NCBI GenBank assembly: GCA_963663035.1
Contig: OY760074.1
Span: forward strand, 32,001-96,000
Direction of reading: 5' to 3'
Source: Acidobacteriota bacterium
GTDB lineage: Bacteria; Acidobacteriota; UBA6911; RPQK01; JADFOI01
DNA length: 64,000 bases
The notes under the pieces are model-generated. The model searched no databases. It saw only the letters and a list, made by a program, of their open reading frames with translations, and was not told where the DNA came from. The translations under genes were made by a program, and so were the position numbers. How positions within the stretch are numbered: the first letter of the stretch is position 1; the number at the start of each line of letters is the position of its first letter. Positions 25,010-57,483 of this stretch are shown here, piece by piece.

Positions 25010-26648
25010 CCGCAATTATTCATAAGTTTGGGGTGAGTGTCGATTTTCTGCGGAAGTTCAGGGCTGAGAGTGTGTTCAGGTGCGATTACAAGGCGTCCAA
25101 GCTTGTTGAGCCGAATAGAGATGAAGCGAGAGCCCCTTCCGGAAACAGCTCGGCCCGCAGGGGGCTGTATATCTGTGTTGGCGCAGGGAGTCAGGGGACC
25201 GTCAGGTGGGACACAGACGGTGCATCAGTAATGCGAAGAGCTTTTGTTCGGGATAAGACGATGCCAGGTGCACCCAGATGCGACGAGAAGTTTCCCGAAC
25301 CCGGGCACCGATTTTGAACAGGCGGCGGCGGAGCGTCTCAATCTCCAGGTTGTGCCAGGGAGTCCCGCACAGGTAATCCCGCAGGCGCAGGATTAAGACA
25401 TAGGCCAGGGCGTGGATGAAGAGTCGGAACTGGTTGGCCAGGAAACGGTGGCAGCTCAAGCGATCCATGGCCAGATCTTTTTTGAAAGCTTTCACGAAGT
25501 TCTCGCACTGGCCCCGTCCGATGTAGTGGTCATACAGCTGCCCGGCCGTGAGATCCTGGCGGTTGGTGACCACAAAGCGACGGTTGAACCCGCGCTCGCT
25601 CACTTCCACCTTGGCCACCATGCGCCGCTCCCGGTCCCAACTGTCGGCCTGATAGACGAGCTCGGTGAACTGGCGTTGCTTTTCTCCTGAGTCGTCATAG
25701 TCTGCTTGCACCTGCTCAACCAAGGGCTCGACGGTGGCCGCCAGCCGGGAGTTGCGGGCAAAGCCCACCACATACTGCAGTTTTTCCTCCTCACAGAACT
25801 CGTACAGTGCCGGCGTCGCAAAGCCACTGTCGGCTCGCACTTCGATCGGAACATCGGATCCCAGAACCTGGCGCATCCGGGCCACCACCCGTTTGAGAAC
25901 CGCCACCGCGTGGGCGGCCGCCCCCTGGTTGCCGGGCCGCAGTAGCGCACATACCAGATCGCCCGTCTCGCCATCGAATAGCAGCAGCGGATGATACATG
26001 TGCTCGCGATAATAGCCGTGGTAAAAGCTGAACTCCTGCTGCCCATGCGTGACGTCATCCGTGCTGTCGATGTCCAGGATGATCTTCTCGGGCCGGCTCT
26101 TCTTGCGGTGCTTCAAGTAGGTCTCCAGCAGCCACTGTCCCAGGCGAGTGAGATCCTTCGAGTCCACCGAGTTCTCCAGTCGCGACAGCGTGGGTTGAGA
26201 AGCCAGATCCGGATCGCTTTCCGGCAGCCGATCACACACGGTCTTGAAGATGGGATCCGAGCGCAAGCTGTCGGCATCGTTGCAGTCCTCATAGCCGGCC
26301 ACGATCTGAAAGCTGCGCTGGGTGAGCAGTTCGCGAATCTGGTGGCGGACGTAGCGGCTATCTCGAGCGTCCTTCAGGCAGGAGGCAAAGCCAGCCGTCA
26401 GTCCGTGCTGTTGATCCAGGGCGTACAGACACAGCAGCCCGGCATCGGAGGAGAGCCGGCCTCCATCGAATCGAGCCACCACTTTTCTGTCAGGGTGAGA
26501 TGGCAAGTTGATCTGGCAGACTGATGCATCGCTGGGCCGTACCTTTTTGGTTTGGAGTTGTTTCATAACCCCTTTTATATCAAAGAGGTACGGCATCTTT
26601 TTGTGCCCTCGATCAGACCCCTTCTTCAGAATTTATGAATAATCCGGG
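25010..26648 (-). mobile_element. IS1380-family element, copy 1 (1639 bp)
   Basis: Ends ccgcaattattcataa...ttatgaataatccggg; matches 44788-46426; flanks CTAG/CTTA, so no duplication. Confidence 0.95.
25202..26596 (-). CDS. IS1380-family transposase
   Basis: FDGGRLSSDAG, GYEDCNDAD, SQPTLSRLEN, LDIDST, RADSGF, YIGRGQCEN. Confidence 0.95.
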   Translation of the reverse strand: MPYLFDIKGVMKQLQTKKVRPSDASVCQINLPSHPDRKVVARFDGGRLSSDAGLLCLYALDQQHGLTAGFASCLKDARDSRYVRHQIRELLTQRSFQIVAGYEDCNDADSLRSDPIFKTVCDRLPESDPDLASQPTLSRLENSVDSKDLTRLGQWLLETYLKHRKKSRPEKIILDIDSTDDVTHGQQEFSFYHGYYREHMYHPLLLFDGETGDLVCALLRPGNQGAAAHAVAVLKRVVARMRQVLGSDVPIEVRADSGFATPALYEFCEEEKLQYVVGFARNSRLAATVEPLVEQVQADYDDSGEKQRQFTELVYQADSWDRERRMVAKVEVSERGFNRRFVVTNRQDLTAGQLYDHYIGRGQCENFVKAFKKDLAMDRLSCHRFLANQFRLFIHALAYVLILRLRDYLCGTPWHNLEIETLRRRLFKIGARVRETSRRIWVHLASSYPEQKLFALLMHRLCPT

Positions 26649-26691
26649 CTTAGCATTGACCACAACTGCATTGCGGGAGAGGGGGAGTTTC

Positions 26692-29415
26692 GTGCTAGGC
26701 AAGACCATCAGCCATTACAAGGTTCTTGAGAAAATCGGCCAAGGCGGTATGGGTGAGGTCTACCGCGCCACCGATACCAAGCTGAACCGGGACGTGGCGC
26801 TCAAGATCCTGCCCGAGCAGTTTGCCTCTGATTCACAGCGAATGGGCCGGTTTCAGCGGGAAGCGGAAGTCCTGGCCTCCCTGGATCATCCCAACATCGG
26901 GCAGATTTACGGGATTGAAGACGCAGGCCAGACCAAGGCCCTGGTTCTCCAGCTCATCGAAGGCCCCACCCTAGCGGAAAGAATTGCCCAGGGACCAATT
27001 CCTGTTGAGGATGCCCTCAAGATTGCGCTGCAGATGGCGGAAGGACTGGAGGCAGCCCACGAGAAGGGGGTGATCCACAGGGATCTCAAGCCTGCCAATA
27101 TCAAGATTACCCCTGAAGGACAGGTCAAGATTCTGGACTTTGGATTAGCTAAGGCTCTGGAGGGGGAGACACCATCAGCCTCAGAGCTCTCACAATCGCC
27201 AACACTCACCGCCGCTGCCACCCAGGCTGGAGTTATTTTGGGTACTGCTGCCTACATGAGTCCGGAACAGGCTAAAGGCAACCAGACCGATACCCGAGCT
27301 GACACATGGGGATTTGGAGCAGTTGTTTACGAGATGCTCACCGGGAAGCGGGCCTTTGACGGGGAGGATGTATCGGACACGCTGGCAGCGGTTTTGCGAG
27401 CTGAAATCGACTGGTCAAAACTTCCGTCTGAAACACCCGCGCCACTTCGGAGGCTTCTGGAACGCTGTCTTAATCGGGATTTGAGACGCCGGTTGGCTGA
27501 CATTCGAGAGGCTCGGATTGCCATAGAAGATTACCTGGCCGATCCCAGCGGGGTGTTGGTGCAGCCAACCGGCGATGTTGTTCAGGCACCTCCGCGACGA
27601 ATACTTCCGTGGGTGGCAGCCCTAATGTTAGCTCTGATCACTGGCGTAGCAGCCTGGAACCTGAAGCCAACAGAACCACAGCCCCTAGCTCCAGCTACTC
27701 GCTTCTACCATGAACTGCCCGACGGCCAGGCATTTACAAGAGGAGGGCGCCCGCTTGTGGCGGTATCACCCGATGGCAGCCAGATTGTTTACGTTGCCAA
27801 TAGCCAACTTTATCTGAGAAACCTGAACGAGATGGTAGCGCGTCCGATTCAAGGAACGGATGAAGACCCTAACAACCCGTTCTTTTCACCCGGCGGCGAA
27901 TGGGTCGGATACTATTCAACTTCTGATAGTCAGCTAAAGAAGATCTCCACCATCGGAGGTGCACCGGTGACCTTGTGCGATGCAGCGTTTCCCTTTGGTG
28001 CGAGTTGGGGTTCAGACGACACCATTGTGTACGGCCAGCCTGAGGGGATCATGCGCGTGTCCGCCAATGGCGGGACTCCAGAGTTGGTCATTTCAACGGA
28101 AGCACCAGAACAGGTGCATGGCCCCCAAATGTTGCCGGGTGGTGAGTGGGTACTGTTCACGTTGACTAGGTTGACTAGCGTGAGTGGTATAACCCGCTGG
28201 GATGAGGCACAGATTGTCGTGCAGTCGCTTGAATCAGGAGAACGAAAGATTCTGTGGGAGGGCGGCAGCGATGCTCGTTACGTTCCTACCGGGCATCTCG
28301 TCTATGCGTTAGAGGACGTGCTGTTTGCGCTTCCCTTTGACCTGGCCAGCCTGGAGGCTTCAGGCGGACCAGTTCCGATGGTTGAGGGAGTTCGGCGGGC
28401 TCCTCCACAGTTCACGGCGAGCGCACACTATGGATTCTCAGACCGTGGGACACTGATTTATATACCAGGCACGGCAGCAATGGCTCAGATGCGTGTTCTT
28501 GCGCTGGTGGACCGGGATGGCCTGGTGGAACGCCTCAACGCGCCGCCCAAAGAATATCTGAGTCCGCGCCTATCGCCAGACGGACAGACCCTGCTCGTTC
28601 AGAGTGTCGAAGAGAACGGTAACGTCATTTGGCTGTATGACCTCACCGGAGACACGGCGATCCAGCAACTGACGTTTGAGGGCAACAACCAGCGTCCCGT
28701 CTGGACTCCGGACGGCCAACGCATCGCGTTCTCATCGGACCGGGATGGGACGATGAGTCTCTACTGGATGCCAGCCGATGGAAGCGGTGTCGCCGAGCGT
28801 CTCACGACAGCCGAAGAGGGAACAAGCCACTGGATGGGGTCCTGGTCGCCGGACGGCGAACTCCTGGTGTTCAATGTAGAAAGGGCCCTCGCGACCGATT
28901 GGGACATTTGGACGTTGTCCGTGGATGATCGAGAGACGCAAAGCCTCTATGACACGCCTGAAACCATATATATGGGTGCAGAGCTCTCTCCCAATGCTGA
29001 GTGGTTGGCTTACGGAGCCGGTCCGATTGCTGGGGAAGCCGACATCTACGTCGAGCCGTTCCCGCCGACAGGAGCTAGGCGCAGGATTTCACAAGACGGA
29101 GGTTATTGGCCTTTGTGGTCACCTGAAGGGAGTGAGCTCTTCTACCGACCCGTTTCCACCTCTGCAGGAATAACACTGAGGTCGGTCGATATTGTCACTC
29201 AACCGGCCTTTGCGTTCAGCAACGAACAGACGCTTCCAGTTGAAGGGTTCAACGTGGTTGGCTACTACAGGGACTACGACATCAGTCCCGACGGCAAACG
29301 ACTGCTCATGGTGTTCCCAGCGGACCAGTCCGATTCCGGCGAACCCGCCCGTCCCCAGATCAATATCGTCCTCAACTGGTTCGAGGAATTGAAGGAACGG
29401 GTGCCTGTGCCATGA
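26692..29415 (+). CDS. Ser/Thr protein kinase with TM segment and C-terminal PD40/TolB-like beta-propeller
   Basis: GQGGMGEVY, VALK, HRDLKPAN, DFG, GTAAYMSPE; SPDG repeats; ends [18 protein letters not shown]; GTG start after GGGGGAG. Confidence 0.93.
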   Translation: MLGKTISHYKVLEKIGQGGMGEVYRATDTKLNRDVALKILPEQFASDSQRMGRFQREAEVLASLDHPNIGQIYGIEDAGQTKALVLQLIEGPTLAERIAQGPIPVEDALKIALQMAEGLEAAHEKGVIHRDLKPANIKITPEGQVKILDFGLAKALEGETPSASELSQSPTLTAAATQAGVILGTAAYMSPEQAKGNQTDTRADTWGFGAVVYEMLTGKRAFDGEDVSDTLAAVLRAEIDWSKLPSETPAPLRRLLERCLNRDLRRRLADIREARIAIEDYLADPSGVLVQPTGDVVQAPPRRILPWVAALMLALITGVAAWNLKPTEPQPLAPATRFYHELPDGQAFTRGGRPLVAVSPDGSQIVYVANSQLYLRNLNEMVARPIQGTDEDPNNPFFSPGGEWVGYYSTSDSQLKKISTIGGAPVTLCDAAFPFGASWGSDDTIVYGQPEGIMRVSANGGTPELVISTEAPEQVHGPQMLPGGEWVLFTLTRLTSVSGITRWDEAQIVVQSLESGERKILWEGGSDARYVPTGHLVYALEDVLFALPFDLASLEASGGPVPMVEGVRRAPPQFTASAHYGFSDRGTLIYIPGTAAMAQMRVLALVDRDGLVERLNAPPKEYLSPRLSPDGQTLLVQSVEENGNVIWLYDLTGDTAIQQLTFEGNNQRPVWTPDGQRIAFSSDRDGTMSLYWMPADGSGVAERLTTAEEGTSHWMGSWSPDGELLVFNVERALATDWDIWTLSVDDRETQSLYDTPETIYMGAELSPNAEWLAYGAGPIAGEADIYVEPFPPTGARRRISQDGGYWPLWSPEGSELFYRPVSTSAGITLRSVDIVTQPAFAFSNEQTLPVEGFNVVGYYRDYDISPDGKRLLMVFPADQSDSGEPARPQINIVLNWFEELKERVPVP

Positions 29416-32081
29416 TCGGTCAGACACTTTCCCATTACAAGATCATCTCCAAGCTAGGCGCTGGCGGGTTTGGGGAAGTCTACCTGGCAGAAGACAGCCG
29501 CCTGGACCGAAAAGTCGCCCTCAAAATCCTGCCCCAGCATCTCTCAGAGAGAGCCGACCTGCGGGAAAGGTTTGAGCGCGAGGCCCGGGCCGTCTCCAGC
29601 CTCAACCATCCTCACATCTGCACCCTCTATGACATCGGGGAGCAGGACGGCATCCACTACCTGGTCATGGAGCACCTGGAGGGGGAGACGCTGGCTGCTC
29701 GGCTGGAGAAGGGAGCACTACCGCTGGAACAGACCCTGCAATACGCCATCCAGATTGCCGATGCCCTGGATAAGGCCCACCGGCAGGGGGTGGTGCACAG
29801 GGACTTGAAGCCTGGCAACATCATGCTGGTCAAGAGTGGGGCCAAGCTGCTGGATTTTGGCTTGGCGAAGCAGCAGGCAACGGAGACACCCACCAACCTC
29901 TCGGCCCTGCCCACGGAGCAAGCCAGCCTCACCGCTGAGGGGACCATCCTGGGCACGTTGCAGTACATGGCCCCTGAGCAGTTGGAAGGCAAGGAGGCTG
30001 ACAGAAGAACAGACATCTTCGCCTTTGGTGCGGTGGTCTATGAGATGGCCACAGGCAAGAAGGCGTTTGAGGGCAACAGCCAGGCCAGTTTGATTGCCAA
30101 AATCCTGGAAGTGGACCCGCAACCGATGTCGGAGTTGCAGCCGCTGACACCCACGGCGCTCGACCGGGTCGTGAAGACCTGCTTGGCTAAGGACCCGGAT
30201 GACCGCTGGCAGTCGGCACGGGACCTGTATCGTGAACTGAAGTGGATCGCGGAAGGTACAACGGACGCAAGCCTGCCCACAACTGCTGCTGGAATCCCCG
30301 CAGGTTCAGGCTGGAGTCAGCTGCTCTTGCCAGTCGTGGCTTCCGTGGTAGTAGCAGCAAGCATAGCAAGCGTCGCCGTCTGGAATCTCAAGCCTGCTCC
30401 CGCCCGACCCGTTACACGTACGGTGGTGGCCCTGCAAGCCGACGAAACAATTCAGTCTAGCGCCATCGTTCCCTTGGCTTTTTCACCGGACGGTTCCCAA
30501 ATGGTCTACTCAGCGCAAAAGGGAGATGATCCACCGCGCCTCTACCTTCGTCCCATGAATAGCCTGGAAGACCAGCCTCTCTCGGGTACTGAAGGGGCTA
30601 ACCACCCATTTTTTTCGCCCGACGGACAGTGGGTTGGCTTCTTTGCGGAAGGAGAATTGAAGAAAGGTCCGATCACCGGCGGTACAGTTCTGACGATCTG
30701 CACTACGAGTGGTCGGACTCAAGGGGCAAGCTGGGGAACCGATGACAGAATTATCTTTAGTACAATCGGGGCATTGCGACTGTTGCAGGTTTCGGCAGAC
30801 GGCGGGACGCCTGAAGTCCTTACGTCGCTGGAAGGTGGCCCACTGGAATCCTTCCTTTCCTGGCCGGAGATTCTGCCGGGGGGAAAAGCGGTGCTCTTCG
30901 CGACCGGTGATGGGACGATTGTGGTGCAACGGCTCGATACGGGCGAACGCAAGGTCCTGCTGCAGGGTGGCACCTTCCCGCATTACGTTTCGACTGGGCA
31001 TCTGGTCTATTCCCGGGAAGGAACCCTGATGGCCGTTCTATTTGATCCCGATCAGCTGGAAATCTCTGGTTCTCCGGTACCCGTCATAGAAGGTATTCGT
31101 TCTCCCGTTAGAGCTTTTGGCGGCGCACAGTTGACCATCTCTAAAACGGGGGCACTGGCTTATGTTGTTGGTTCAGCGGACGAATCGGAGGGCACGCTGG
31201 TTTGGGTGGACCGCCAGGGAATATCTGAGCCCTTGGCTGCTCCCCTTCGGGATTACGAGTACCCCCGGGTCTCGCCCGACGGTCAGCGTATAGCCGTTGG
31301 AATTCGAGAGCGAGAGAATGAGGTCTATATTGGGGTTTATGACGTTTCCCGAAGCACCCTTACCCGACTGACGTTTGAGTCTGGATTTAACACCGTTCCT
31401 GCCTGGTCGCCCGATGGGAAGCGGCTGGCGTTCACCTCAGACCGAGAAGGCCGGCTGGGCATTTTCTGGCAAATGGCCGATGGCAGCGGTGGTGTGGAAC
31501 GGTTAACCACGAGCGATTATCAAACTGTCCCGGCTTCATTTTCCCCGGACGGGCAACTGCTGGCATTTATCGAAGACAATCCGACGACCGGCCGCGCAAT
31601 CCGGGTGCTGAATTTAGAAGATCGCGAGGCGGAGCCGTTCCTGCAAAACCCCTATGAAGAAACTGCACCGAAGTTTTCCCCTGACGGCGAATGGATGGCC
31701 TATTCCTCGACCGAGTCGGGACGCAGAGAAGTTTACGTGCAGCCGTATCCCGGCCCTGGCGGGAAGTGGCAGATTTCGACCGACGGAGGCCAGGAGCCGG
31801 TCTGGAACCCGCAAGGAGGTGAGTTGTTTTTCCGCATTGGGGACAGGATGATGGCGGTGGAGCTGGATACGAGGTCCGGCTTTGCGTCGGGAACGCCTCA
31901 GATGCTCTTTGAAGGACTGTACCTGCCAACCGCCTTTAGCTATCCATTTTACGATGTCAGTCCCGACGGCCAGCGTTTCCTGATGCTGCAGCCCGTCGAG
32001 TCGCAGACCGGCGGTGCGACCCAGATCAACGTCGTCCTCAACTGGTTTGAAGAACTCAAACGCCTGGTGCCTACCCCATGA
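29412..32081 (+). CDS. Ser/Thr protein kinase with TM segment and PD40 beta-propeller
   Basis: [29 protein letters not shown]; SPDG repeats; ends [18 protein letters not shown]; ATGA overlap with previous gene. Confidence 0.95.
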
Positions 32082-32221
32082 TCGGCCAAACCATCTCCCA
32101 CTACAAAATCATCGAGAAGATCGGCCAGGGCGGCATGGGAACCGTCTACCGTGCCGAGGACACCAACCTGAGCCGTGAAGTGGCATCAACGTTGGACACC
32201 CACTTCGAAAAACCTGGCTGA
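32078..32221 (+). pseudogene. Truncated Ser/Thr kinase N-terminus
   Basis: [36 protein letters not shown], then unrelated sequence and a stop; ATGA overlap with previous kinase. Confidence 0.9.
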
Positions 32222-32859: not shown

Positions 32860-34239
32860 GAGGTTCCGTCAATAAGTGTGTAAATAGACATCAGGCGGCT
32901 TTCTCCTGGGTGACTGGGTTGACTGGAACTCCATTGACATATTGGGCTCCTTGGTAGACATCCTTCATCAAGTGGGGAGCCTTCAAACGGCGAAATCTCT
33001 TCTCAGCGACCAGCAGCATCTTCCAGATGACAGCCCGTGCGTTGGCCACTTTCTTGAACCTTCGAGCAGCATCGGTTCGCAGTCGCAGAGCAGAGAAGGG
33101 AGACTCCACTGGGTTGGTAGTCCGCAGATGTTGCCACTGCTGTTTGGGATAGTTGTAAAACGTCACCATCCGCTCCCAGTCCTGGTCGATCAGATCAGCC
33201 GCTGCCTCCAGGCCTCTCTTGCTACACCAATGTTGGAATCGTCCTTTGACTCGCTCGGCTTCCTGCCGTGTTTCTGCATAAGGGATCTGCCGCAACATCA
33301 ACAAGGCCGCTTTGTGCCGACTCTTGGGGATCTTGGCCAGCAAGTTGACGATGCGATGATTCCAGCATCTCTGCTCGTCGGCTTCTGGGAACACGTTGCG
33401 CAACGCTCCCCAGATCCCCAGATGCCCGTCAGCGATCACCAGACGGGGTGGGTTCATCCCCCGCTCTTTGAGATCCCGCAGCACTTCGGACCAGCTCTGG
33501 GTCGATTCTCGATAACCACTACTGACGGACACCACCACTTTAGTGCCATCACTTAAAGCGGCGATCACTACCAGAATCACGGCCTTCTCCTTCTCCAGCC
33601 CTGCTTTGATGTACACGCCGTCCGCCCACAAATACACGACTTCCAGATCATCCAGCCGACGGCTCTGCCAGGCCTCCATTTCTCCCTGCCACTTCTGTTT
33701 CAACCGGGCTACGGTGCTGGGGGACAGCGGCGCTTCTTCCCCTAAAAGCCCTCTCAAGGCCAGATCGAAATCCCCCTCGGCCAGACCATGTAAATAGAGT
33801 TCTGGAATCAAGTCTCGTACCTCTCGCGTTCGCTTGGCAAACAGCGGCAAGACCCGGCTCTCAAAACGCTCTTCCAGATCCCGCACTCGGGGACGCCGCA
33901 GCTTGATCGTTCCGCAACTCATCGTCAGTCGCCGCTCCTTGCCGTAGCCGTTGCGATAGCCACCGGAGGCGTCCACTTCTCGGCGACGCTCATTCTTTCT
34001 TCGTCCCAGCAGCTGTGTCACTTCATCCTCCAGCAGTTCCTGTACGTAAAACTGGATCTGCTCTCGCACCCACTCTTCCAGCTGTTCAAAGCAGACTCTT
34101 GACTCCACACTGTGATCAATGTTCTTCTTGCTCATGGCGGTGTGACTCCTTCCTTTCGGGCTCTTCCGCCCGGGTTTTTATTTTCACCCGGAAGGATAAT
34201 CACCGCCTGTGCTATTTACACACCTTTTGAGGGTAGCTC
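32860..34239 (-). mobile_element. IS256-family element (1380 bp)
   Basis: IRs gaggttccgtcaataagtgtgtaaatag / ctatttacacaccttttgagggtagctc; 9-bp TSD cgataaaaa (32851-32859, 34240-34248). Confidence 0.95.
32891..34135 (-). CDS. IS256-family transposase
   Basis: GYRNGY, YLWADG, LVIADG, QRCWNH, LRTTNPVES. Confidence 0.95.
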   Translation of the reverse strand: MSKKNIDHSVESRVCFEQLEEWVREQIQFYVQELLEDEVTQLLGRRKNERRREVDASGGYRNGYGKERRLTMSCGTIKLRRPRVRDLEERFESRVLPLFAKRTREVRDLIPELYLHGLAEGDFDLALRGLLGEEAPLSPSTVARLKQKWQGEMEAWQSRRLDDLEVVYLWADGVYIKAGLEKEKAVILVVIAALSDGTKVVVSVSSGYRESTQSWSEVLRDLKERGMNPPRLVIADGHLGIWGALRNVFPEADEQRCWNHRIVNLLAKIPKSRHKAALLMLRQIPYAETRQEAERVKGRFQHWCSKRGLEAAADLIDQDWERMVTFYNYPKQQWQHLRTTNPVESPFSALRLRTDAARRFKKVANARAVIWKMLLVAEKRFRRLKAPHLMKDVYQGAQYVNGVPVNPVTQEKAA

Positions 34240-34446
34240 CGATAAAAAACATACATATGCTAATATACCAATCGATAAGTCATTCTGGCACGCTGTCGGC
34301 GACGAGGTTCTACTACATCCAGATGACAGAGAAAATCCAAGCTGGAACCAAGACGCACTTTGAACTGCCCGGTGGCCCCGGCCGCACACGGGTGCAACGT
34401 CACCGCGACGACCCTCGCTTCCACGACCTGCTTCCATGAGAAGGCC

Positions 34447-34760
34447 CTTTCTTGTCAAGACCGACTTGGCGGTCAAAAGTCCGGGACCGGGTGATTAAGC
34501 CAGCTGATGGGAGTTCGCTTAATCGATCCAGTGATGCTGATTTTGTTTGCCTTGCTTCCATCCGCACTCTTTTTCAGCCCTTGATTTGGACTGGGTGCAT
34601 GTAAGGGTTCGTCAAACTGGGCGCTGCAATCTGCGGCTCGTTCTCTTCCGAAGGAAGGAACAGCAGGTCGTTCGCAGTCACCCGAACTGGGCATTTGGAT
34701 CATTGAGGTTAACTCCATGGGCGGGTCACGTTCACCGGAATCCCTTCTGGGTTCAATCTC
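34447..34760 (-). ncRNA. Putative bridge/seek RNA in the non-coding end of IS1111 copy 1
   Basis: Two stem-loop-stem modules: target guides at 34661-34670 and 34631-34636, donor guides at 34602-34606 and 34555-34561; RNA ends approximate. Confidence 0.8.
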
Positions 34761-35849
34761 TTAGGCAGCCCCTTCCAGGTACTCTTGATTGTTGTACAGC
34801 GGTTCATAGGTCTCTCCTGTGACCCACAGATGGTGCAGCAGGACCGAGAGTTTACGAGCCACCGCCACCACGGCTCGCTTCTTGGCGCTTTTTCCTCCTC
34901 TGGAAGCAATCCTCTCCCCATAGCGTCGCAAGTCACAATCCGAGCCAAAAGGTCCCAGGATGTACTGGGAACTACCGACCAGTAGTTTGCGAACGAATCG
35001 GTCGCCGGCTTTGGTAATCCTCAACTGAGGATCCCGATTCCCGGATTGGTCTTGTCTGGGAGTGAGCCCCAGATACGCTCCCACCTGGCGACTTCTTCCA
35101 AACCGATGGGCATCCTCGAGGGTCAAAACAAAGGCCAGAGCTGTGATCGGTCCTACTCCTCGAACTTGCTGAAGGTTCTCGGTGTCCGGATACTTCTGCT
35201 GGCACAGTTGCTGAATCTGCCGATCGTATTGGCGGATCTGTGCGGTGAGCTGTTGGATCATCTCCAGCAGGGGCTCCAAAGCCATCTTCAGGCAACCCGG
35301 AATGTGGAGTTTGACCCGATGGGGAAAAGCCTCTGTGGAACAACTGGGCAGACGCTCCCCGAAGGCTTTCACAGATCCTCGGATAGGATTGACCAGCCGG
35401 GTTCGGGCTCTCACCAGCTCATCTCTAGCTTTAACCACCGCCAGGTCCGCTTGAGCGGCTTCGCCCCGATGCTGAATCGGATACAACAGCTCGGGATCCA
35501 CTCTTCCTAAACGTCCCAGAAGCTCTCCATCCTTGCGGTCCGATTTCTTTCGGTTCTGGCTGATGAGTCGAACCTGTCGGGGATTGGCCACGATTTCTTC
35601 GTGTCCTTGCTCCTTGGCTATCGCTTGCACCCACCGAGAGTGGGTTCCCGTTTCCAACACCACCCGCATTTTTGGCTGAGACTTGAAGAACCTTTCCATG
35701 GCTCGTCGTTGAGTCTTCACCCTACCTTCTTCCACTTTCTGTCCTGACTTGTCGATGATGCAGTAGTAGGAAAATTTGTCTCCCAGGTCCAAACCCATCG
35801 TCAGTTCCGGAATCTGTGTGATCTCTTTGATAGAATCTTTCATGGCCAA
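34761..35849 (-). CDS. IS110-family DEDD transposase/recombinase
   Basis: GLDLG, VVLETG, KSDRKD, GVGPITA, YLGLTPRQDQSG, AVARKL. Confidence 0.96.
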   Translation of the reverse strand: MAMKDSIKEITQIPELTMGLDLGDKFSYYCIIDKSGQKVEEGRVKTQRRAMERFFKSQPKMRVVLETGTHSRWVQAIAKEQGHEEIVANPRQVRLISQNRKKSDRKDGELLGRLGRVDPELLYPIQHRGEAAQADLAVVKARDELVRARTRLVNPIRGSVKAFGERLPSCSTEAFPHRVKLHIPGCLKMALEPLLEMIQQLTAQIRQYDRQIQQLCQQKYPDTENLQQVRGVGPITALAFVLTLEDAHRFGRSRQVGAYLGLTPRQDQSGNRDPQLRITKAGDRFVRKLLVGSSQYILGPFGSDCDLRRYGERIASRGGKSAKKRAVVAVARKLSVLLHHLWVTGETYEPLYNNQEYLEGAA

Positions 35850-36045
35850 GCTCCTTTGCTAAAGAGTTAATATTTTGCAGCCCAAGCTTTGGGACTGCGT
35901 TCCTCTTACTGCAGCTCATTTTAGAGACTGCCTCTGAGGAGTTTGGCCTTCTCATCCTTATCTGCTGCGGATGAACCTGGCGCCGTAGATGAAGCTGATC
36001 TTTCAGGTCGCGTTTCAACTGATAGAATAGTGCCTGAGGTGTTTA

Positions 36046-36327
36046 ATGAGAGCCATTTGGAAGAACATCACTCTTGCTGAAAGTGATCGAACTATTGTCG
36101 TGGAAAGGAATCATTACTTTCCCCCTGATTCCATCAACAGAACCTATTTTGAAGACAGCGAAACTTACACCCACTGTTCCTGGAAGGGGCAGGCCAGTTA
36201 CTACGACATCGTGGTGGGCGGAGAACGGAATGGAGATGCCGCCTGGTACTATTCAGAACCCAAGGAAAAGGCGGCACAAATCAAGAATCATATCGCCTTT
36301 TGGAAGGGCGTTGAAGTCGTTCCATAA
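36046..36327 (+). CDS. DUF427 domain protein
   Basis: AESDRTIVVERNHYFP, THCSWKGQASYY, AAWYYSEP, HIAFWKGV. Confidence 0.92.
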   Translation: MRAIWKNITLAESDRTIVVERNHYFPPDSINRTYFEDSETYTHCSWKGQASYYDIVVGGERNGDAAWYYSEPKEKAAQIKNHIAFWKGVEVVP

Positions 36328-36340
36328 GGCCTCTTTTTGC

Positions 36341-36391
36341 GACGACCCTCGCTTCACTGACCTGCTGCTGCGGATGAATTTGGAGCCTTGA
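36341..36391 (+). repeat. Kinase/TPR tail repeat R2 (DDPRFTDLLLRMNLEP*), an unoccupied IS1111 target
   Basis: gacgaccctcgcttcactgacctgctgctgcggatgaatttggagccttga. Confidence 0.85.
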
Positions 36392-37642: not shown

Positions 37643-37696
37643 CGCGACGACCCTCGCTTCCAGGACCTGATGCGGCGCATGAACTTAGAGCCGTGA
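37643..37696 (+). repeat. Kinase/TPR tail repeat R3 (RDDPRFQDLMRRMNLEP*)
   Basis: cgcgacgaccctcgcttccaggacctgatgcggcgcatgaacttagagccgtga. Confidence 0.85.
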
Positions 37697-55782: not shown

Positions 55783-55858
55783 GAAACGAGGGCCCACATC
55801 CCAACTATACACACTAAAGCCGCACAAGCTTCCCTCAACCTGCTTCTATGAGAAGGCC

Positions 55859-56172
55859 CTTTCTTGTCAAGACCGACTTGGCGGTCAAAAGTCCGGGACC
55901 GGGTGATTAAGCCAGCTGATGGGAGTTCGCTTAATCGATCCAGTGATGCTGATTTTGTTTGCCTTGCTTCCATCCGCACTCTTTTTCAGCCCTTGATTTG
56001 GACTGGGTGCATGTAAGGGTTCGTCAAACTGGGCGCTGCAATCTGCGGCTCGTTCTCTTCCGAAGGAAGGAACAGCAGGTCGTTCGCAGTCACCCGAACT
56101 GGGCATTTGGATCATTGAGGTTAACTCCATGGGCGGGTCACGTTCACCGGAATCCCTTCTGGGTTCAATCTC
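55859..56172 (-). ncRNA. Putative bridge/seek RNA, copy 2
   Basis: Same sequence as 34447-34760. Confidence 0.78.
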
Positions 56173-57261
56173 TTAGGCAGCCCCTTCCAGGTACTCTTGA
56201 TTGTTGTACAGCGGTTCATAGGTCTCTCCTGTGACCCACAGATGGTGCAGCAGGACCGAGAGTTTACGAGCCACCGCCACCACGGCTCGCTTCTTGGCGC
56301 TTTTTCCTCCTCTGGAAGCAATCCTCTCCCCATAGCGTCGCAAGTCACAATCCGAGCCAAAAGGTCCCAGGATGTACTGGGAACTACCGACCAGTAGTTT
56401 GCGAACGAATCGGTCGCCGGCTTTGGTAATCCTCAACTGAGGATCCCGATTCCCGGATTGGTCTTGTCTGGGAGTGAGCCCCAGATACGCTCCCACCTGG
56501 CGACTTCTTCCAAACCGATGGGCATCCTCGAGGGTCAAAACAAAGGCCAGAGCTGTGATCGGTCCTACTCCTCGAACTTGCTGAAGGTTCTCGGTGTCCG
56601 GATACTTCTGCTGGCACAGTTGCTGAATCTGCCGATCGTATTGGCGGATCTGTGCGGTGAGCTGTTGGATCATCTCCAGCAGGGGCTCCAAAGCCATCTT
56701 CAGGCAACCCGGAATGTGGAGTTTGACCCGATGGGGAAAAGCCTCTGTGGAACAACTGGGCAGACGCTCCCCGAAGGCTTTCACAGATCCTCGGATAGGA
56801 TTGACCAGCCGGGTTCGGGCTCTCACCAGCTCATCTCTAGCTTTAACCACCGCCAGGTCCGCTTGAGCGGCTTCGCCCCGATGCTGAATCGGATACAACA
56901 GCTCGGGATCCACTCTTCCTAAACGTCCCAGAAGCTCTCCATCCTTGCGGTCCGATTTCTTTCGGTTCTGGCTGATGAGTCGAACCTGTCGGGGATTGGC
57001 CACGATTTCTTCGTGTCCTTGCTCCTTGGCTATCGCTTGCACCCACCGAGAGTGGGTTCCCGTTTCCAACACCACCCGCATTTTTGGCTGAGACTTGAAG
57101 AACCTTTCCATGGCTCGTCGTTGAGTCTTCACCCTACCTTCTTCCACTTTCTGTCCTGACTTGTCGATGATGCAGTAGTAGGAAAATTTGTCTCCCAGGT
57201 CCAAACCCATCGTCAGTTCCGGAATCTGTGTGATCTCTTTGATAGAATCTTTCATGGCCAA
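56173..57261 (-). CDS. IS110-family transposase/recombinase
   Basis: Translation identical to 34761-35849. Confidence 0.96.
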   Translation of the reverse strand: MAMKDSIKEITQIPELTMGLDLGDKFSYYCIIDKSGQKVEEGRVKTQRRAMERFFKSQPKMRVVLETGTHSRWVQAIAKEQGHEEIVANPRQVRLISQNRKKSDRKDGELLGRLGRVDPELLYPIQHRGEAAQADLAVVKARDELVRARTRLVNPIRGSVKAFGERLPSCSTEAFPHRVKLHIPGCLKMALEPLLEMIQQLTAQIRQYDRQIQQLCQQKYPDTENLQQVRGVGPITALAFVLTLEDAHRFGRSRQVGAYLGLTPRQDQSGNRDPQLRITKAGDRFVRKLLVGSSQYILGPFGSDCDLRRYGERIASRGGKSAKKRAVVAVARKLSVLLHHLWVTGETYEPLYNNQEYLEGAA

Positions 57262-57483
57262 GCTCCTTTGCTAAAGAGTTAATATTTTGCAGCCCAAGCT
57301 TTGGGACTGCGTTCCTCTTACTGCAGCTCATTTTAGAGACTGCCTCTGAGGAGTTTGGCCTTCTCATCCTTATCTGCTGCGGAGGTGGTTTAGGTATTGG
57401 TGTGTTCTAAGCGTAATTCCATTCTTAACCTGACAGAGGTGTCCGATAGCATTTCTCACCGAATCGTGCAGGGAGATTCTGAG

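What the first reader, a model, noticed from the sequence alone, without database searches (positions are those of the whole stretch)
34404..35988. IS1111 bridge RNA apparently programmed against the host's repeated kinase-tail sequence
Seen: both IS copies sit in the same target with a CT core, cgacctg-CT-gctgcgg (copy 1) and caacctg-CT-gctgcgg (copy 2). Read on the transposase strand, the non-coding end has an internal loop with 5'-CGACCUGCUG (34670-34661), an inner hairpin, then CCGCAG (34636-34631, the reverse complement of ctgcgg). Together these tile the 16-bp target cgacctgctg|ctgcgg. A second loop carries CCUUA (34606-34602) and AUGGAAG (34561-34555), matching the predicted circle junction ccttat-CT-tccat. 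Established: IS110/IS1111 recombinases use bridge/seek RNAs with separate target- and donor-binding loops. Inference: the target is the 'DLLLR' coding sequence of a multi-copy kinase/TPR gene tail rather than a REP or attC site, so the element seems to use a gene-family expansion as a landing pad. R2 (36359-36373) is an empty 15/16 match.
Basis: partly seen in the sequence, partly recalled or inferred. Interest (0 to 1): 0.88.

Follow-up and report, generated by a model that had tools for sequence, protein, structure and literature searches.

The report
RNA-guided IS1111 element targeting kinase-tail repeats
This is an ordinary-type but well-preserved RNA-guided jumping gene (IS1111 family) whose own guide RNA matches a short sequence repeated at the 3' ends of a family of host kinase genes, which explains why all its copies sit in the same sequence.

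Summary
Window 34431-35963 is a 1.53-kb IS1111-type insertion sequence: an IS110-family RNA-guided transposase on the minus strand, 11-bp subterminal inverted repeats, and a 328-nt non-coding end 3' of the transposase gene. The genome has 4 copies, all in ...ACCTG-CT-GCTGCGG.

The 11-nt ACGACCUGCUG match to the target is unlikely by chance (reached by 11 of 2000 shuffles). The donor matches are not significant on their own.

Seventeen distinct elements (this one plus 16 relatives at 46-56% amino-acid identity) share the RNA architecture. The stems covary, and all four guide segments change together with each element's own flanks and ends, so both loops are real.

Two corrections:
- The 3' target guide is GCCGC-AG-AU. 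Its AG is the core, so the guides overlap at the core and do not tile the target.
- The target is the conserved 3' coding tail of a roughly 800-aa Ser/Thr-kinase/TPR paralog family. However, none of the 4 insertions lies in an intact gene: three are in orphan tail remnants and one is in a non-tail look-alike site.

Verdict: a new member of a known kind, with an unusual class of target. Interest is moderate.

The parts
34431..35963 (-). IS copy 1, including the CT (AG in transposase orientation) core dinucleotide at both junctions; body 34433-35961
   Evidence: a 1532-1533-bp unit present 4 times in the genome. Boundaries are fixed by comparison with empty sites.
34761..35843 (-). Transposase gene (360 aa), DEDD/RuvC-like N-terminal domain plus the IS110 C-terminal domain
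   Evidence: PF01548 4.4e-17, PF02371 7.5e-19. NF033542 'IS110 family RNA-guided transposase', 224 bits (cut-off 140). The GLTPRQDQSG motif is read directly from the translation.
35945..35955 (.). Left-end subterminal inverted repeat (ATGAGAAGGCC in transposase orientation), followed by the terminal extension ccttat (35956-35961)
   Evidence: perfect 11-bp inverted repeat. The same repeat is conserved in relatives.
34436..34446 (.). Right-end subterminal inverted repeat, with the 3-nt terminal extension (tcc, 34433-34435)
34545..34683 (-). Bridge/seek RNA core: closing stem P1, target-binding loop, inner hairpin, donor-binding loop
   Evidence: alignment of 17 sequences, 96.4% of cells paired, 11 of 18 pairs with compensatory changes, 0 of 500 shuffles as good.
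34661..34671 (-). 5' target guide ACGACCUG-CU-G, complementary to core AG plus the 8 nt to its right in transposase orientation (equal to + strand acgacctgCTg)
   Evidence: 11-nt exact match; 11/2000 shuffles; same position covaries with flanks in relatives; C to A change in near-identical copies matches their flank.
34629..34637 (-). 3' target guide GCCGC-AG-AU (left target + core + first bases of the left end).
   Evidence: register fixed by the relatives. Perfect for gccgcAGat sites in L007 and L009. One mismatch for this genome's gcagcAGat sites.
34602..34606 (-). 5' donor guide CCUUA, complementary to the left-end extension ATAAGG
   Evidence: not significant alone. Of 7 distinct elements with a non-consensus left-end extension, 5 (this one, L013, L032, L027, L035) carry the matching change in the same alignment columns. 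L021 and L034 do not.
34555..34561 (-). 3' donor guide AUGGA-AG, identical to the right-end extension plus core
   Evidence: the G/A at the first extension base agrees with the guide in 19 of 19 rows (17 distinct elements). L030, with core AA, has AGAAA.
34453..34458 (-). TTGACA hexamer 20 nt inside the right end, conserved in relatives; candidate -35 box of a circle-junction promoter
   Evidence: read directly from the sequences (CTTGAC in the listed relatives). Function is inferred from the literature; not tested.
34404..34432 (+). Left half of the interrupted orphan kinase tail (…RDDPRFHDLL) up to the core CT
   Evidence: only 75 in-frame codons to the previous stop, and no kinase body upstream.
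35962..35990 (+). Core CT plus the right half of the interrupted tail (…LRMNLAP stop)
36340..36390 (+). R2: empty orphan tail with an intact target (tgacctgCTgctgcgg, 36358-36373), 13 nt after a 93-aa ORF
37649..37696 (+). Third orphan tail (DDPRFQDLMRRMNLEP stop), not a guide match
55843..57375 (-). IS copy 2, in an intergenic caacctgCT|gctgcgg site that is not recognisably a kinase tail. Differs from copy 1 by one base in the right-end extension (55847).

Best explanation
Window 34431-35963, and its twin at 55843-57375, is an active-looking IS1111-family insertion sequence. Its DEDD transposase is guided by a bridge/seek RNA encoded in the 328-nt non-coding end downstream of the transposase gene.

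The RNA has a closing stem (GGGUGACUGC/GCAGCGCCC) around an internal loop:
- The 5' side, ACGACCUG-CU-G, pairs with one strand of the target.
- The 3' side, GCCGC-AG-AU, pairs with the other strand.
- Both sides include the core dinucleotide.

A second loop (CCUUA ... AUGGA-AG) pairs with the two element ends as they would be joined in the circle. The preferred target, ACGACCTG-CT-GC(G/T)GC, is the coding sequence for ...(H/Q)DLL(R/L)R in the conserved C-terminal tail of a multi-copy Ser/Thr-kinase/TPR family. This gives the element a dozen or so near-identical sites per genome.

Shown here: element anatomy, copy number, the shared target and orientation, RNA stem covariation, and guide-versus-flank covariation across relatives.

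Inferred, not shown: transcription and processing of the RNA, circle formation, and that base pairing is what selects the site.
For: - Family: PF01548 and PF02371. NCBIfam 'IS110 family RNA-guided transposase', 224 bits against a cut-off of 140. Perfect 11-bp subterminal inverted repeats, and the long non-coding end lies 3' of the gene.
- Copies: 4 of 4 genomic copies are in ACCTG-CT-GCTGCGG in one orientation.
- Target guide in this element: an 11-nt exact guide-target match, reached by 11 of 2000 shuffles.
- Structure: 17 aligned RNAs give 96.4% paired cells. 11 of 18 pairs have compensatory changes, 0 of 500 shuffles do as well, and slid controls give at most 3 such pairs.
- 5' target guide against each element's own right flank: an exact match of 6 nt or more in 10 of 17 cognate pairs, against 1.1% of 272 non-cognate pairs.
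- 3' target guide against each element's own left flank, in register: at least 5 of 6 matches in 7 of 16 cognate pairs, against 1.2% of 256 non-cognate pairs.
- Donor 3' guide: agrees with the right-end extension in 19 of 19 rows. The one element with core AA (L030) carries AA/UU in three guide segments.
- Near-identical copies (94-96%) in other Acidobacteriota assemblies sit in the same tail family. Their single guide change (C to A) matches the flank base in 3 of 4 sites.
- Guide order: the complement of the top strand lies 5' of the bottom-strand match, as published for IS1111-type seekRNAs (PMC11187229, abstract and sections read).
Against: - No direct evidence of transcription. Contigs from RNA libraries cover the non-coding end, but DNA carry-over cannot be excluded.
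- The minimum-free-energy fold of the whole non-coding end is no better than shuffles (z = -1.23).
- No Rfam family matches.
- The donor matches in this element alone are at chance level.
- In the homologous register, this genome's four sites each have one mismatch to the 3' guide. Two perfectly matching LLRR sites (GACCTGCTGCGGC) and seven LLLR sites are unoccupied.
- Several relatives show only partial guide-flank matches (L021, L033, L034, L035).
- The relatives are related to one another, so the counts overstate independence.
Confidence: 0.85

Rival explanations
1. One reading: the 3' segment CCGCAG pairs with ccgcag at positions -7 to -2 left of the core, so the two guides tile the 16-bp LLLR target without overlapping at the core.
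For: In this genome the shifted register gives 6 of 6 matches, and all four insertions are in ctgctgctgcgg (LLLR) sites rather than the LLRR sites that fit the homologous register. The ctg trinucleotide repeat allows a 3-nt slip.
Against: In all aligned relatives the AG lies 3-4 nt before the closing stem and is followed by AU(G), which equals the first bases of the left end. The bases 5' of it match each element's own left flank. The element with core AA has AA there. The 94-96% identical copies have an identical guide and sit in gccgcAG sites, where only the core register matches. For IS621 the core is included in all four pairings (PMC11208160, passage seen).
Confidence: 0.1
2. The flanking 'target' bases travel with the element. 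The mobile unit would then be longer than 34433-35961, so the guide-flank match is internal to the element and says nothing about site choice.
For: Copy 2 lies in an otherwise unrelated intergenic region, yet has about 17 of 18 target-like bases around it. Only about 0.08 such look-alike sites are expected by chance (my own arithmetic: about 49 sixteen-mers within one mismatch, over 7.2 million positions on both strands, divided by 4^16).
Against: Seven uninterrupted GACCTGCTGCTGC sites without any IS exist in paralogous tails. The flanks of copies 1, 3 and 4 continue into 25-60 nt of tail homology on both sides, and that homology differs between copies. Relatives show different flanks matching different guides.
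Confidence: 0.04
3. The element is an immobile relic, and the shared target reflects duplication of IS-containing tail segments by host recombination rather than repeated RNA-guided insertion.
For: Copies 1 and 3 share an identical 28-nt left flank (read directly). All copies lie in decayed tails. Copy 4 is itself interrupted by another IS.
Against: Copies differ by 0-4 bases over 1.53 kb, and three transposase ORFs are intact. Flanks diverge within 30-60 nt on both sides. Copy 2 is in a non-tail context. Near-identical copies occur in different tail loci of other assemblies.
Confidence: 0.08

Closest known systems
IS1111-family elements with a seekRNA (ISEc11, ISPa11, ISKpn4, ISPst6; Siddiquee et al. 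2024, PMC11187229; abstract and sections 4, 6, 9, 10, 13, 14 read)
   Same: DEDD transposase with the PF02371 C-terminal domain and the GL-P----SG motif. 11-bp subterminal inverted repeats with asymmetric terminal extensions. Long non-coding region downstream of the transposase gene. Two short RNA segments matching the two target strands, overlapping at the insertion point, with the top-strand complement first. Site- and orientation-specific insertion without duplication.
   Different: The published targets are a short linear site, REP sequences and attC sites, whereas here the target is the coding 3' tail of a paralogous kinase/TPR family. The left extension is 8 nt counting the core (published 7 or 6). 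The transposase is 360 aa (published spread 330-350). Sequence identity to those elements was not measured here.
IS621 bridge RNA (IS110 group; Durrant et al. 2024, PMC11208160; passages read)
   Same: Two internal loops, one for the target and one for the donor. Each loop has a 5' and a 3' guide that pair with opposite strands and include the core dinucleotide. Viewed on the strand where the core reads CT, the 5' guide equals left target + CT and the 3' guide is the reverse complement of CT + right target, exactly as for LTG and RTG.
   Different: The RNA lies in the end downstream of the transposase gene and is transcribed towards the element end. In transposase orientation the core reads AG and the guide order is reversed. 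Long subterminal inverted repeats are present. No Rfam model exists for comparison. The covariance models of that paper are in supplements, which I could not see.
The 16 relatives at 46-56% amino-acid identity compared here, from Acidobacteriota genomes (G handles) plus L010 (Acidobacteriota MAG) and L013 (Longimicrobiaceae MAG)
   Same: The same inverted repeat (ATGAGAAGGCC), the same end extensions, the same RNA architecture and the same conserved stems.
   Different: Their guides and flanks are different. Read directly, several flanks are palindromic, REP-like repeats (L010, L013, L027, L029). None is a kinase tail.

Membership tests
IS1111 family (within IS110 sensu ISfinder) | DEDD/RuvC-like N-terminal domain plus the IS110-type C-terminal domain with a conserved S/T-G | tested here: met
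   (PF01548, PF02371). (NF033542, 224 bits against a 140 cut-off). GLTPRQDQSG read in the translation.
IS1111 family (within IS110 sensu ISfinder) | Subterminal inverted repeats of about 11-13 bp with short asymmetric terminal extensions | tested here: met
   perfect 11-bp ATGAGAAGGCC. Extensions are AG+ATAAGG on the left (8 nt against the published 7 or 6) and GGA on the right (3 nt).
IS1111 family (within IS110 sensu ISfinder) | Long non-coding region downstream of the transposase gene | tested here: met
   328 nt 3' of the stop codon, against 118 nt 5' of the start.
IS1111 family (within IS110 sensu ISfinder) | Insertion in one specific sequence and one orientation, with no target duplication beyond the shared core | tested here: met
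   4 of 4 copies. Empty sites show a single CT.
IS1111 family (within IS110 sensu ISfinder) | Circular intermediate with abutted ends creating a promoter | not testable with these tools
   Only a conserved TTGACA near the right end was seen. Contig data cannot show circles.
Bridge/seek RNA | Structured RNA with an internal loop whose two sides match opposite strands of the target around the core | tested here: met
Bridge/seek RNA | Second loop matching the element ends (donor) | tested here: met
   (19 of 19 rows for the 3' donor guide; 5 of 7 distinct elements with a variant left-end extension, this one included, for the 5' donor guide). In this element alone the matches are at chance level.
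Bridge/seek RNA | The RNA is transcribed, binds the transposase and is required for transposition | not testable with these tools
   RNA-library contigs cover 34438-34719, but this does not prove transcription.
Bridge/seek RNA | Match to a curated covariance model | tested here: not met
   No Rfam 15 family at gathering score over the window, and no relevant family up to E = 10 on 34400-34800. No match means nothing reached the threshold. Whether Rfam holds a bridge-RNA family at all was not established.

The most novel reading that the evidence does not exclude
This IS lineage has moved from the palindromic, REP-like repeats used by its relatives to a protein-coding motif. Selection on a paralogous kinase family keeps that motif constant, so the host cannot easily mutate the site away. 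The many orphan tail fragments may be products of the element's own activity, for example half-match recombination or IS-mediated deletion that erodes kinase genes. These fragments are the only places where copies are found, both here and in the related assembly. On this reading the IS would be remodelling a signalling-gene family.
Probability: 0.2. Interest if true: 0.6.

Novelty: new member of a known kind. Interest (0 to 1): 0.4.

Why it matters
This is a clean natural example of RNA-guided target choice in the less-studied IS1111 branch. Seventeen distinct elements (this one plus 16 relatives) show all four guide segments and the core changing together with their DNA partners. That fixes the pairing register for this sub-family (7-8 nt + core on one side; 4-8 nt + core + 2-3 nt of the left end on the other), which could help design reprogrammed IS1111-type recombinases.

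It also shows that the natural target need not be an extragenic repeat: a short, selectively constrained coding motif of a gene family can serve. None of this changes the known mechanism.

Tried and rejected
- Rfam scans of the window and of the non-coding end at E up to 10 found no relevant family.
- The single-sequence MFE fold of the whole non-coding end was no better than shuffles (z = -1.23). It was not used as evidence.
- The plasmid collection has no near-identical DNA. tblastn there gave only hits below 36% identity annotated as 'IS110 family transposase', which was not informative.
- Sequencing runs: all four laid runs are contigs.
  - Contigs from two metatranscriptome libraries cover the non-coding end and the transposase gene at 90-99% identity. 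This does not prove transcription.
  - The joints 34430>35962 (sides of 23-27 nt) are simply uninterrupted tails of paralogs or other organisms. They are not excision products.
  - No circle junction could be sought this way.
- Avoidance of intact genes: with 0 of about 3 intact-gene sites and 4 of 8 other sites occupied among the 11 sites within one mismatch, the hypergeometric chance is about 0.21 (my arithmetic). This is not significant and is not claimed.
- DNA-level homogenisation of the tail: identical codons given identical residues are 222 of 372 (0.60) in the last 18 codons, against 2455 of 5410 (0.45) in the rest. That is only a modest excess, so the tail is conserved mainly at the protein level.
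- An 81-aa ORF (34473-34718, minus strand) inside the non-coding end was considered and rejected. The relatives differ there by indels that are not multiples of three and by variable hairpins.
- Rows dropped before the counts:
  - L026 (unpublished genome G152; not used for any claim).
  - L045 and L046 (second copies of the same IS as L021 and L024; dropped, kept as rows).
  - L011 (short non-coding end; no target loop found).
  - L035 (left out of alignment A2 because my extraction was too long; kept).
  - L023, L025, L028, L047 and L037-L043 (contig ends, truncated, or only 32-36% identical; no inverted repeat found).
  - L032 (lacks a left flank, so it is absent from the 3' guide count).
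  - L029's 3' guide was mis-parsed by my regular expression and counts as a low value.
  - In one search the 5' donor region was mis-located for L010, L030, L033 and L034.
- Literature searches for this IS or target class ('IS1111'+'Acidobacteri'; 'bridge RNA'/'IS110'/'natural target'/'coding sequence') listed nothing on a kinase-tail target. I saw only the listings and two preprint abstracts. Supplements, including target tables and covariance models, are closed and may bear on novelty.
Full report
**What is there**

Window 34431-35963 is a 1.53-kb insertion sequence.
- On the minus strand it carries a 360-aa ORF (35843-34761) with the two Pfam domains of IS110-family recombinases: PF01548 at 4.4e-17 and PF02371 at 7.5e-19.
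- The ORF scores 224 bits against NCBIfam NF033542, 'IS110 family RNA-guided transposase', whose cut-off is 140.
- In transposase orientation the element reads AG-ATAAGG-ATGAGAAGGCC ... GGCCTTCTCAT-GGA-AG. This is a perfect 11-bp subterminal inverted repeat with short asymmetric terminal extensions.
- The long non-coding end (328 nt, 34433-34760) lies downstream of the transposase gene.

These are the features that separate IS1111-type from IS110-type elements in Siddiquee et al. 2024 (PMC11187229; sections read).

**Copies and target**

The genome is one 3.59-Mb contig and holds four copies.
- Two are in the window (34431-35963 and 55843-57375).
- One is at G000:C1:842157.
- One is at 1204093-1206898. 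This copy is itself interrupted by a 1260-bp IS3-like element.

All four lie in ...ACCTG-CT|GCTGCGG in the same orientation, with the CT present at both junctions. Seven uninterrupted GACCTGCTGCTGC sites and two GACCTGCTGCGGC sites remain empty. R2 (36358-36373) is one of the seven.

**Is the guide match more than chance?**

The non-coding end contains ACGACCUGCUG (34671-34661). This is an 11-nt exact complement of core AG plus the 8 bases to its right in transposase orientation, plus one base to the left.
- Only 11 of 2000 shuffles of the non-coding end reach 11 nt against the 42-bp reconstructed target.
- The 7-nt AUGGAAG match to the circle junction is reached by 1135 of 2000 shuffles. Taken alone, the donor loop would not be credible.
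- The single-sequence fold is also unremarkable (z = -1.23).
- Rfam has no matching family.

**Comparative test**

Sources of related sequence:
- A scan of species-representative genomes found near-identical copies (94-96% DNA identity) in other Acidobacteriota assemblies, plus 51-52% relatives.
- A search of 401 genomes of the phylum found matches at E <= 1e-40 in 26, the window's own genome included.
- For 19 relative loci I could define both ends from the conserved inverted repeat.
- The unpublished G152 locus was excluded throughout.

The non-coding ends share one architecture:

GGGYGACUGCG - [5' target guide] - variable hairpin - [3' target guide ending AG-AU(G)] - GCAGCRCC - linker with [5' donor guide] - (C)AUGCACC - hairpin - AGAGUGCG - [3' donor guide RAU(G/A)GAAG]

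Structure, on 17 aligned sequences:
- The three conserved helices are 96.4% paired.
- 11 of 18 pairs show compensatory changes.
- No shuffle out of 500 does as well, and slid controls give at most 3 such pairs.

Guides against flanks and ends:
- 5' target guide: each element's guide matches the reverse complement of its own right flank by 6 nt or more exactly in 10 of 17 cases. This holds for 1.1% of 272 non-cognate pairings.
- 3' target guide: the six bases before the AG match the element's own left flank at 5 or 6 positions in 7 of 16 cases. This holds for 1.2% of 256 non-cognate pairings.
- 3' donor guide: it agrees with the first base of the right-end extension (G or A) in 19 of 19 rows, which are 17 distinct elements.
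- 5' donor guide: of 7 distinct elements with a non-consensus left-end extension, 5 (this one, L013, L032, L027, L035) carry the matching change. L021 and L034 do not.
- L030 has the core AA instead of AG and carries that change in three guide segments.

The relatives are kin, so these counts overstate independence. Even so, the pattern is what an RNA-guided mechanism predicts and what chance or protein-only recognition does not.

**Register**

The relatives fix the register of the 3' target guide. Its AG lies 3-4 nt before the closing stem and is the core. It is followed by AU(G), which equals the first bases of the left end.
- In this element the guide is therefore GCCGC-AG-AU (34637-34629). 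The two target guides overlap at the core.
It is not the homologous register.
- In the homologous register this genome's sites (gcagc-AG) have one mismatch.
- The near-identical copies carry the same 3' guide. They sit in gccgc-AG (L007, L009; perfect) or gccac-AG (L008; one mismatch) sites.
- Those copies differ in the 5' guide by one base (AAGACC instead of ACGACC). That change matches the flank (caggtcTt) in 3 of their 4 sites. This genome's ACGACC matches caggtcGt in copies 1 and 3.

Viewed on the strand where the core reads CT, the geometry is that of IS621. The 5' guide equals left target + CT, and the 3' guide is the reverse complement of CT + right target. In transposase orientation the order is reversed, as reported for IS1111-type seekRNAs. 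This last point is my inference from the sequences and those texts.

**What the target is**

- The sequence encodes ...DDPRF(H/Q/T)DLL(L/R)RMNLEP-stop.
- A motif search finds 15 unoccupied copies. Eight of them end long ORFs, with 487-796 codons between the previous stop and the motif.
- One such protein has a protein-kinase domain (PF00069, 6.3e-51) and C-terminal TPR repeats.
- The last 18 codons are 80% identical among eight paralogs, against 21-60% in 20-codon windows over the preceding roughly 300 alignment columns. Synonymous conservation is only modestly raised: 0.60 against 0.45 identical codons given identical residues.

But the four occupied sites are not in intact genes.
- The in-frame distance to the previous stop is 75, 40, 42 and 32 codons.
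- tblastn with seven full-length paralogs finds no gene body upstream. It finds only short N-terminal fragments 1.4-2.4 kb away for copies 1 and 4.
- Copy 2 lies between two unrelated divergent genes, in a site that resembles the tail over only about 18 bp.
- Of the near-identical copies in other assemblies, L012 has only about 50 codons of tail homology beside the insertion. For L008 the only tail match lies about 2 kb from the element. No match at all was returned for L007 or L009.
- The difference from intact genes is not statistically significant with these numbers (about 0.21 by my arithmetic), so I report it as a pattern, not a finding.
- An insertion in an intact gene would replace only the last 7 residues (…DLLP-stop).

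**Relatives' targets**

Read directly, several relatives sit in palindromic, REP-like repeats (for example L010, L013, L027, L029). None sits in a kinase tail. This matches the known habit of the family (REP, attC and transposon ends). The coding-tail target is the one unusual feature here.

**Expression**

Contigs from two metatranscriptome libraries cover 34438-34719 and the transposase gene at 90-99% identity. Contigs cannot show strand, ends or level, and DNA may be present in those libraries. I give this no weight.

**Verdict**

- It needs two corrections: the guide register, and the fact that insertions lie in orphan tail remnants and one look-alike site rather than in intact genes.
- It is a new member of a known kind with an unusual target class.
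- The most novel reading still open is that the element helps to erode or remodel the kinase family, with the orphan tails as its scars. Two 2026 preprints describe half-match recombination and expanded IS110 loci (abstracts seen). They make that reading conceivable. I found no direct evidence for it.

Noticed in passing
window 32891-34135 (minus strand): A 414-aa IS256-family transposase gene (NF033543, 287 bits). It lies between a roughly 45-aa N-terminal fragment of a tail-family kinase (about 32051-32185) and the orphan tail that carries IS copy 1. The kinase gene body seems to have been replaced by other DNA.
   Followed up: partly
G000:C1:1205107-1206366 (outside the window): IS copy 4 is interrupted by a 1260-bp element with two overlapping ORFs (101 aa and 373 aa). 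By eye it looks like an IS3-family OrfA/OrfB pair. Not checked against Pfam.
   Followed up: partly
window 55847: Copy 2 differs from copy 1 by a single base. In transposase orientation its right-end extension reads AGA instead of GGA. This is exactly the position that covaries with the 3' donor guide in relatives, so copy 2's end mismatches its own guide (AUGGAAG).
   Followed up: partly
window 34628: The base after the core in the 3' target guide is U here (AGAUU). It is G (AGAUG) in genomic copy 3, in the 94-96% identical copies of other assemblies, and in contigs of all four laid runs.
   Followed up: partly
window 26635-29415 and 29412-32081 (plus strand): Two tandem, overlapping ORFs of 926 aa and 889 aa have kinase-like N-termini (HRDLKP motif read by eye). 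Their C-terminal halves and tail (…NWFEELK…VP) differ from the targeted family. A third, decayed kinase start follows directly.
   Followed up: no
G000:C1:3492-3538 and 3572709-3572755: Two orphan tails with identical 86-nt context lie about 25 kb apart across the contig ends. This suggests a large repeat, or overlapping ends of the circular assembly.
   Followed up: no
G000:C1 around 2137260-2137340: An internally deleted family member: about 65-70 N-terminal kinase residues are followed directly by the last roughly 20 residues of the tail (tblastn).
   Followed up: no
L011:3511-3668: A 51%-identical relative, in a MAG whose record title reads 'uncultured delta proteobacterium', has only a roughly 150-nt non-coding end. 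It has no recognisable target-binding loop but retains an AAUGGAAGC segment and the TTGACA box. It may be degenerate, or it may depend on an RNA supplied in trans.
   Followed up: no
L030 (G209:C34): A relative whose core dinucleotide is AA instead of AG at both ends. Three guide segments carry the corresponding change, making it a natural core variant.
   Followed up: partly
window 36046-36327: A 93-aa ORF with no NCBIfam match ends 13 nt before the empty orphan tail R2. Together with the copy 1 site and the orphan tail at 37649, that makes three orphan tails in the same orientation within 3.3 kb.
   Followed up: partly
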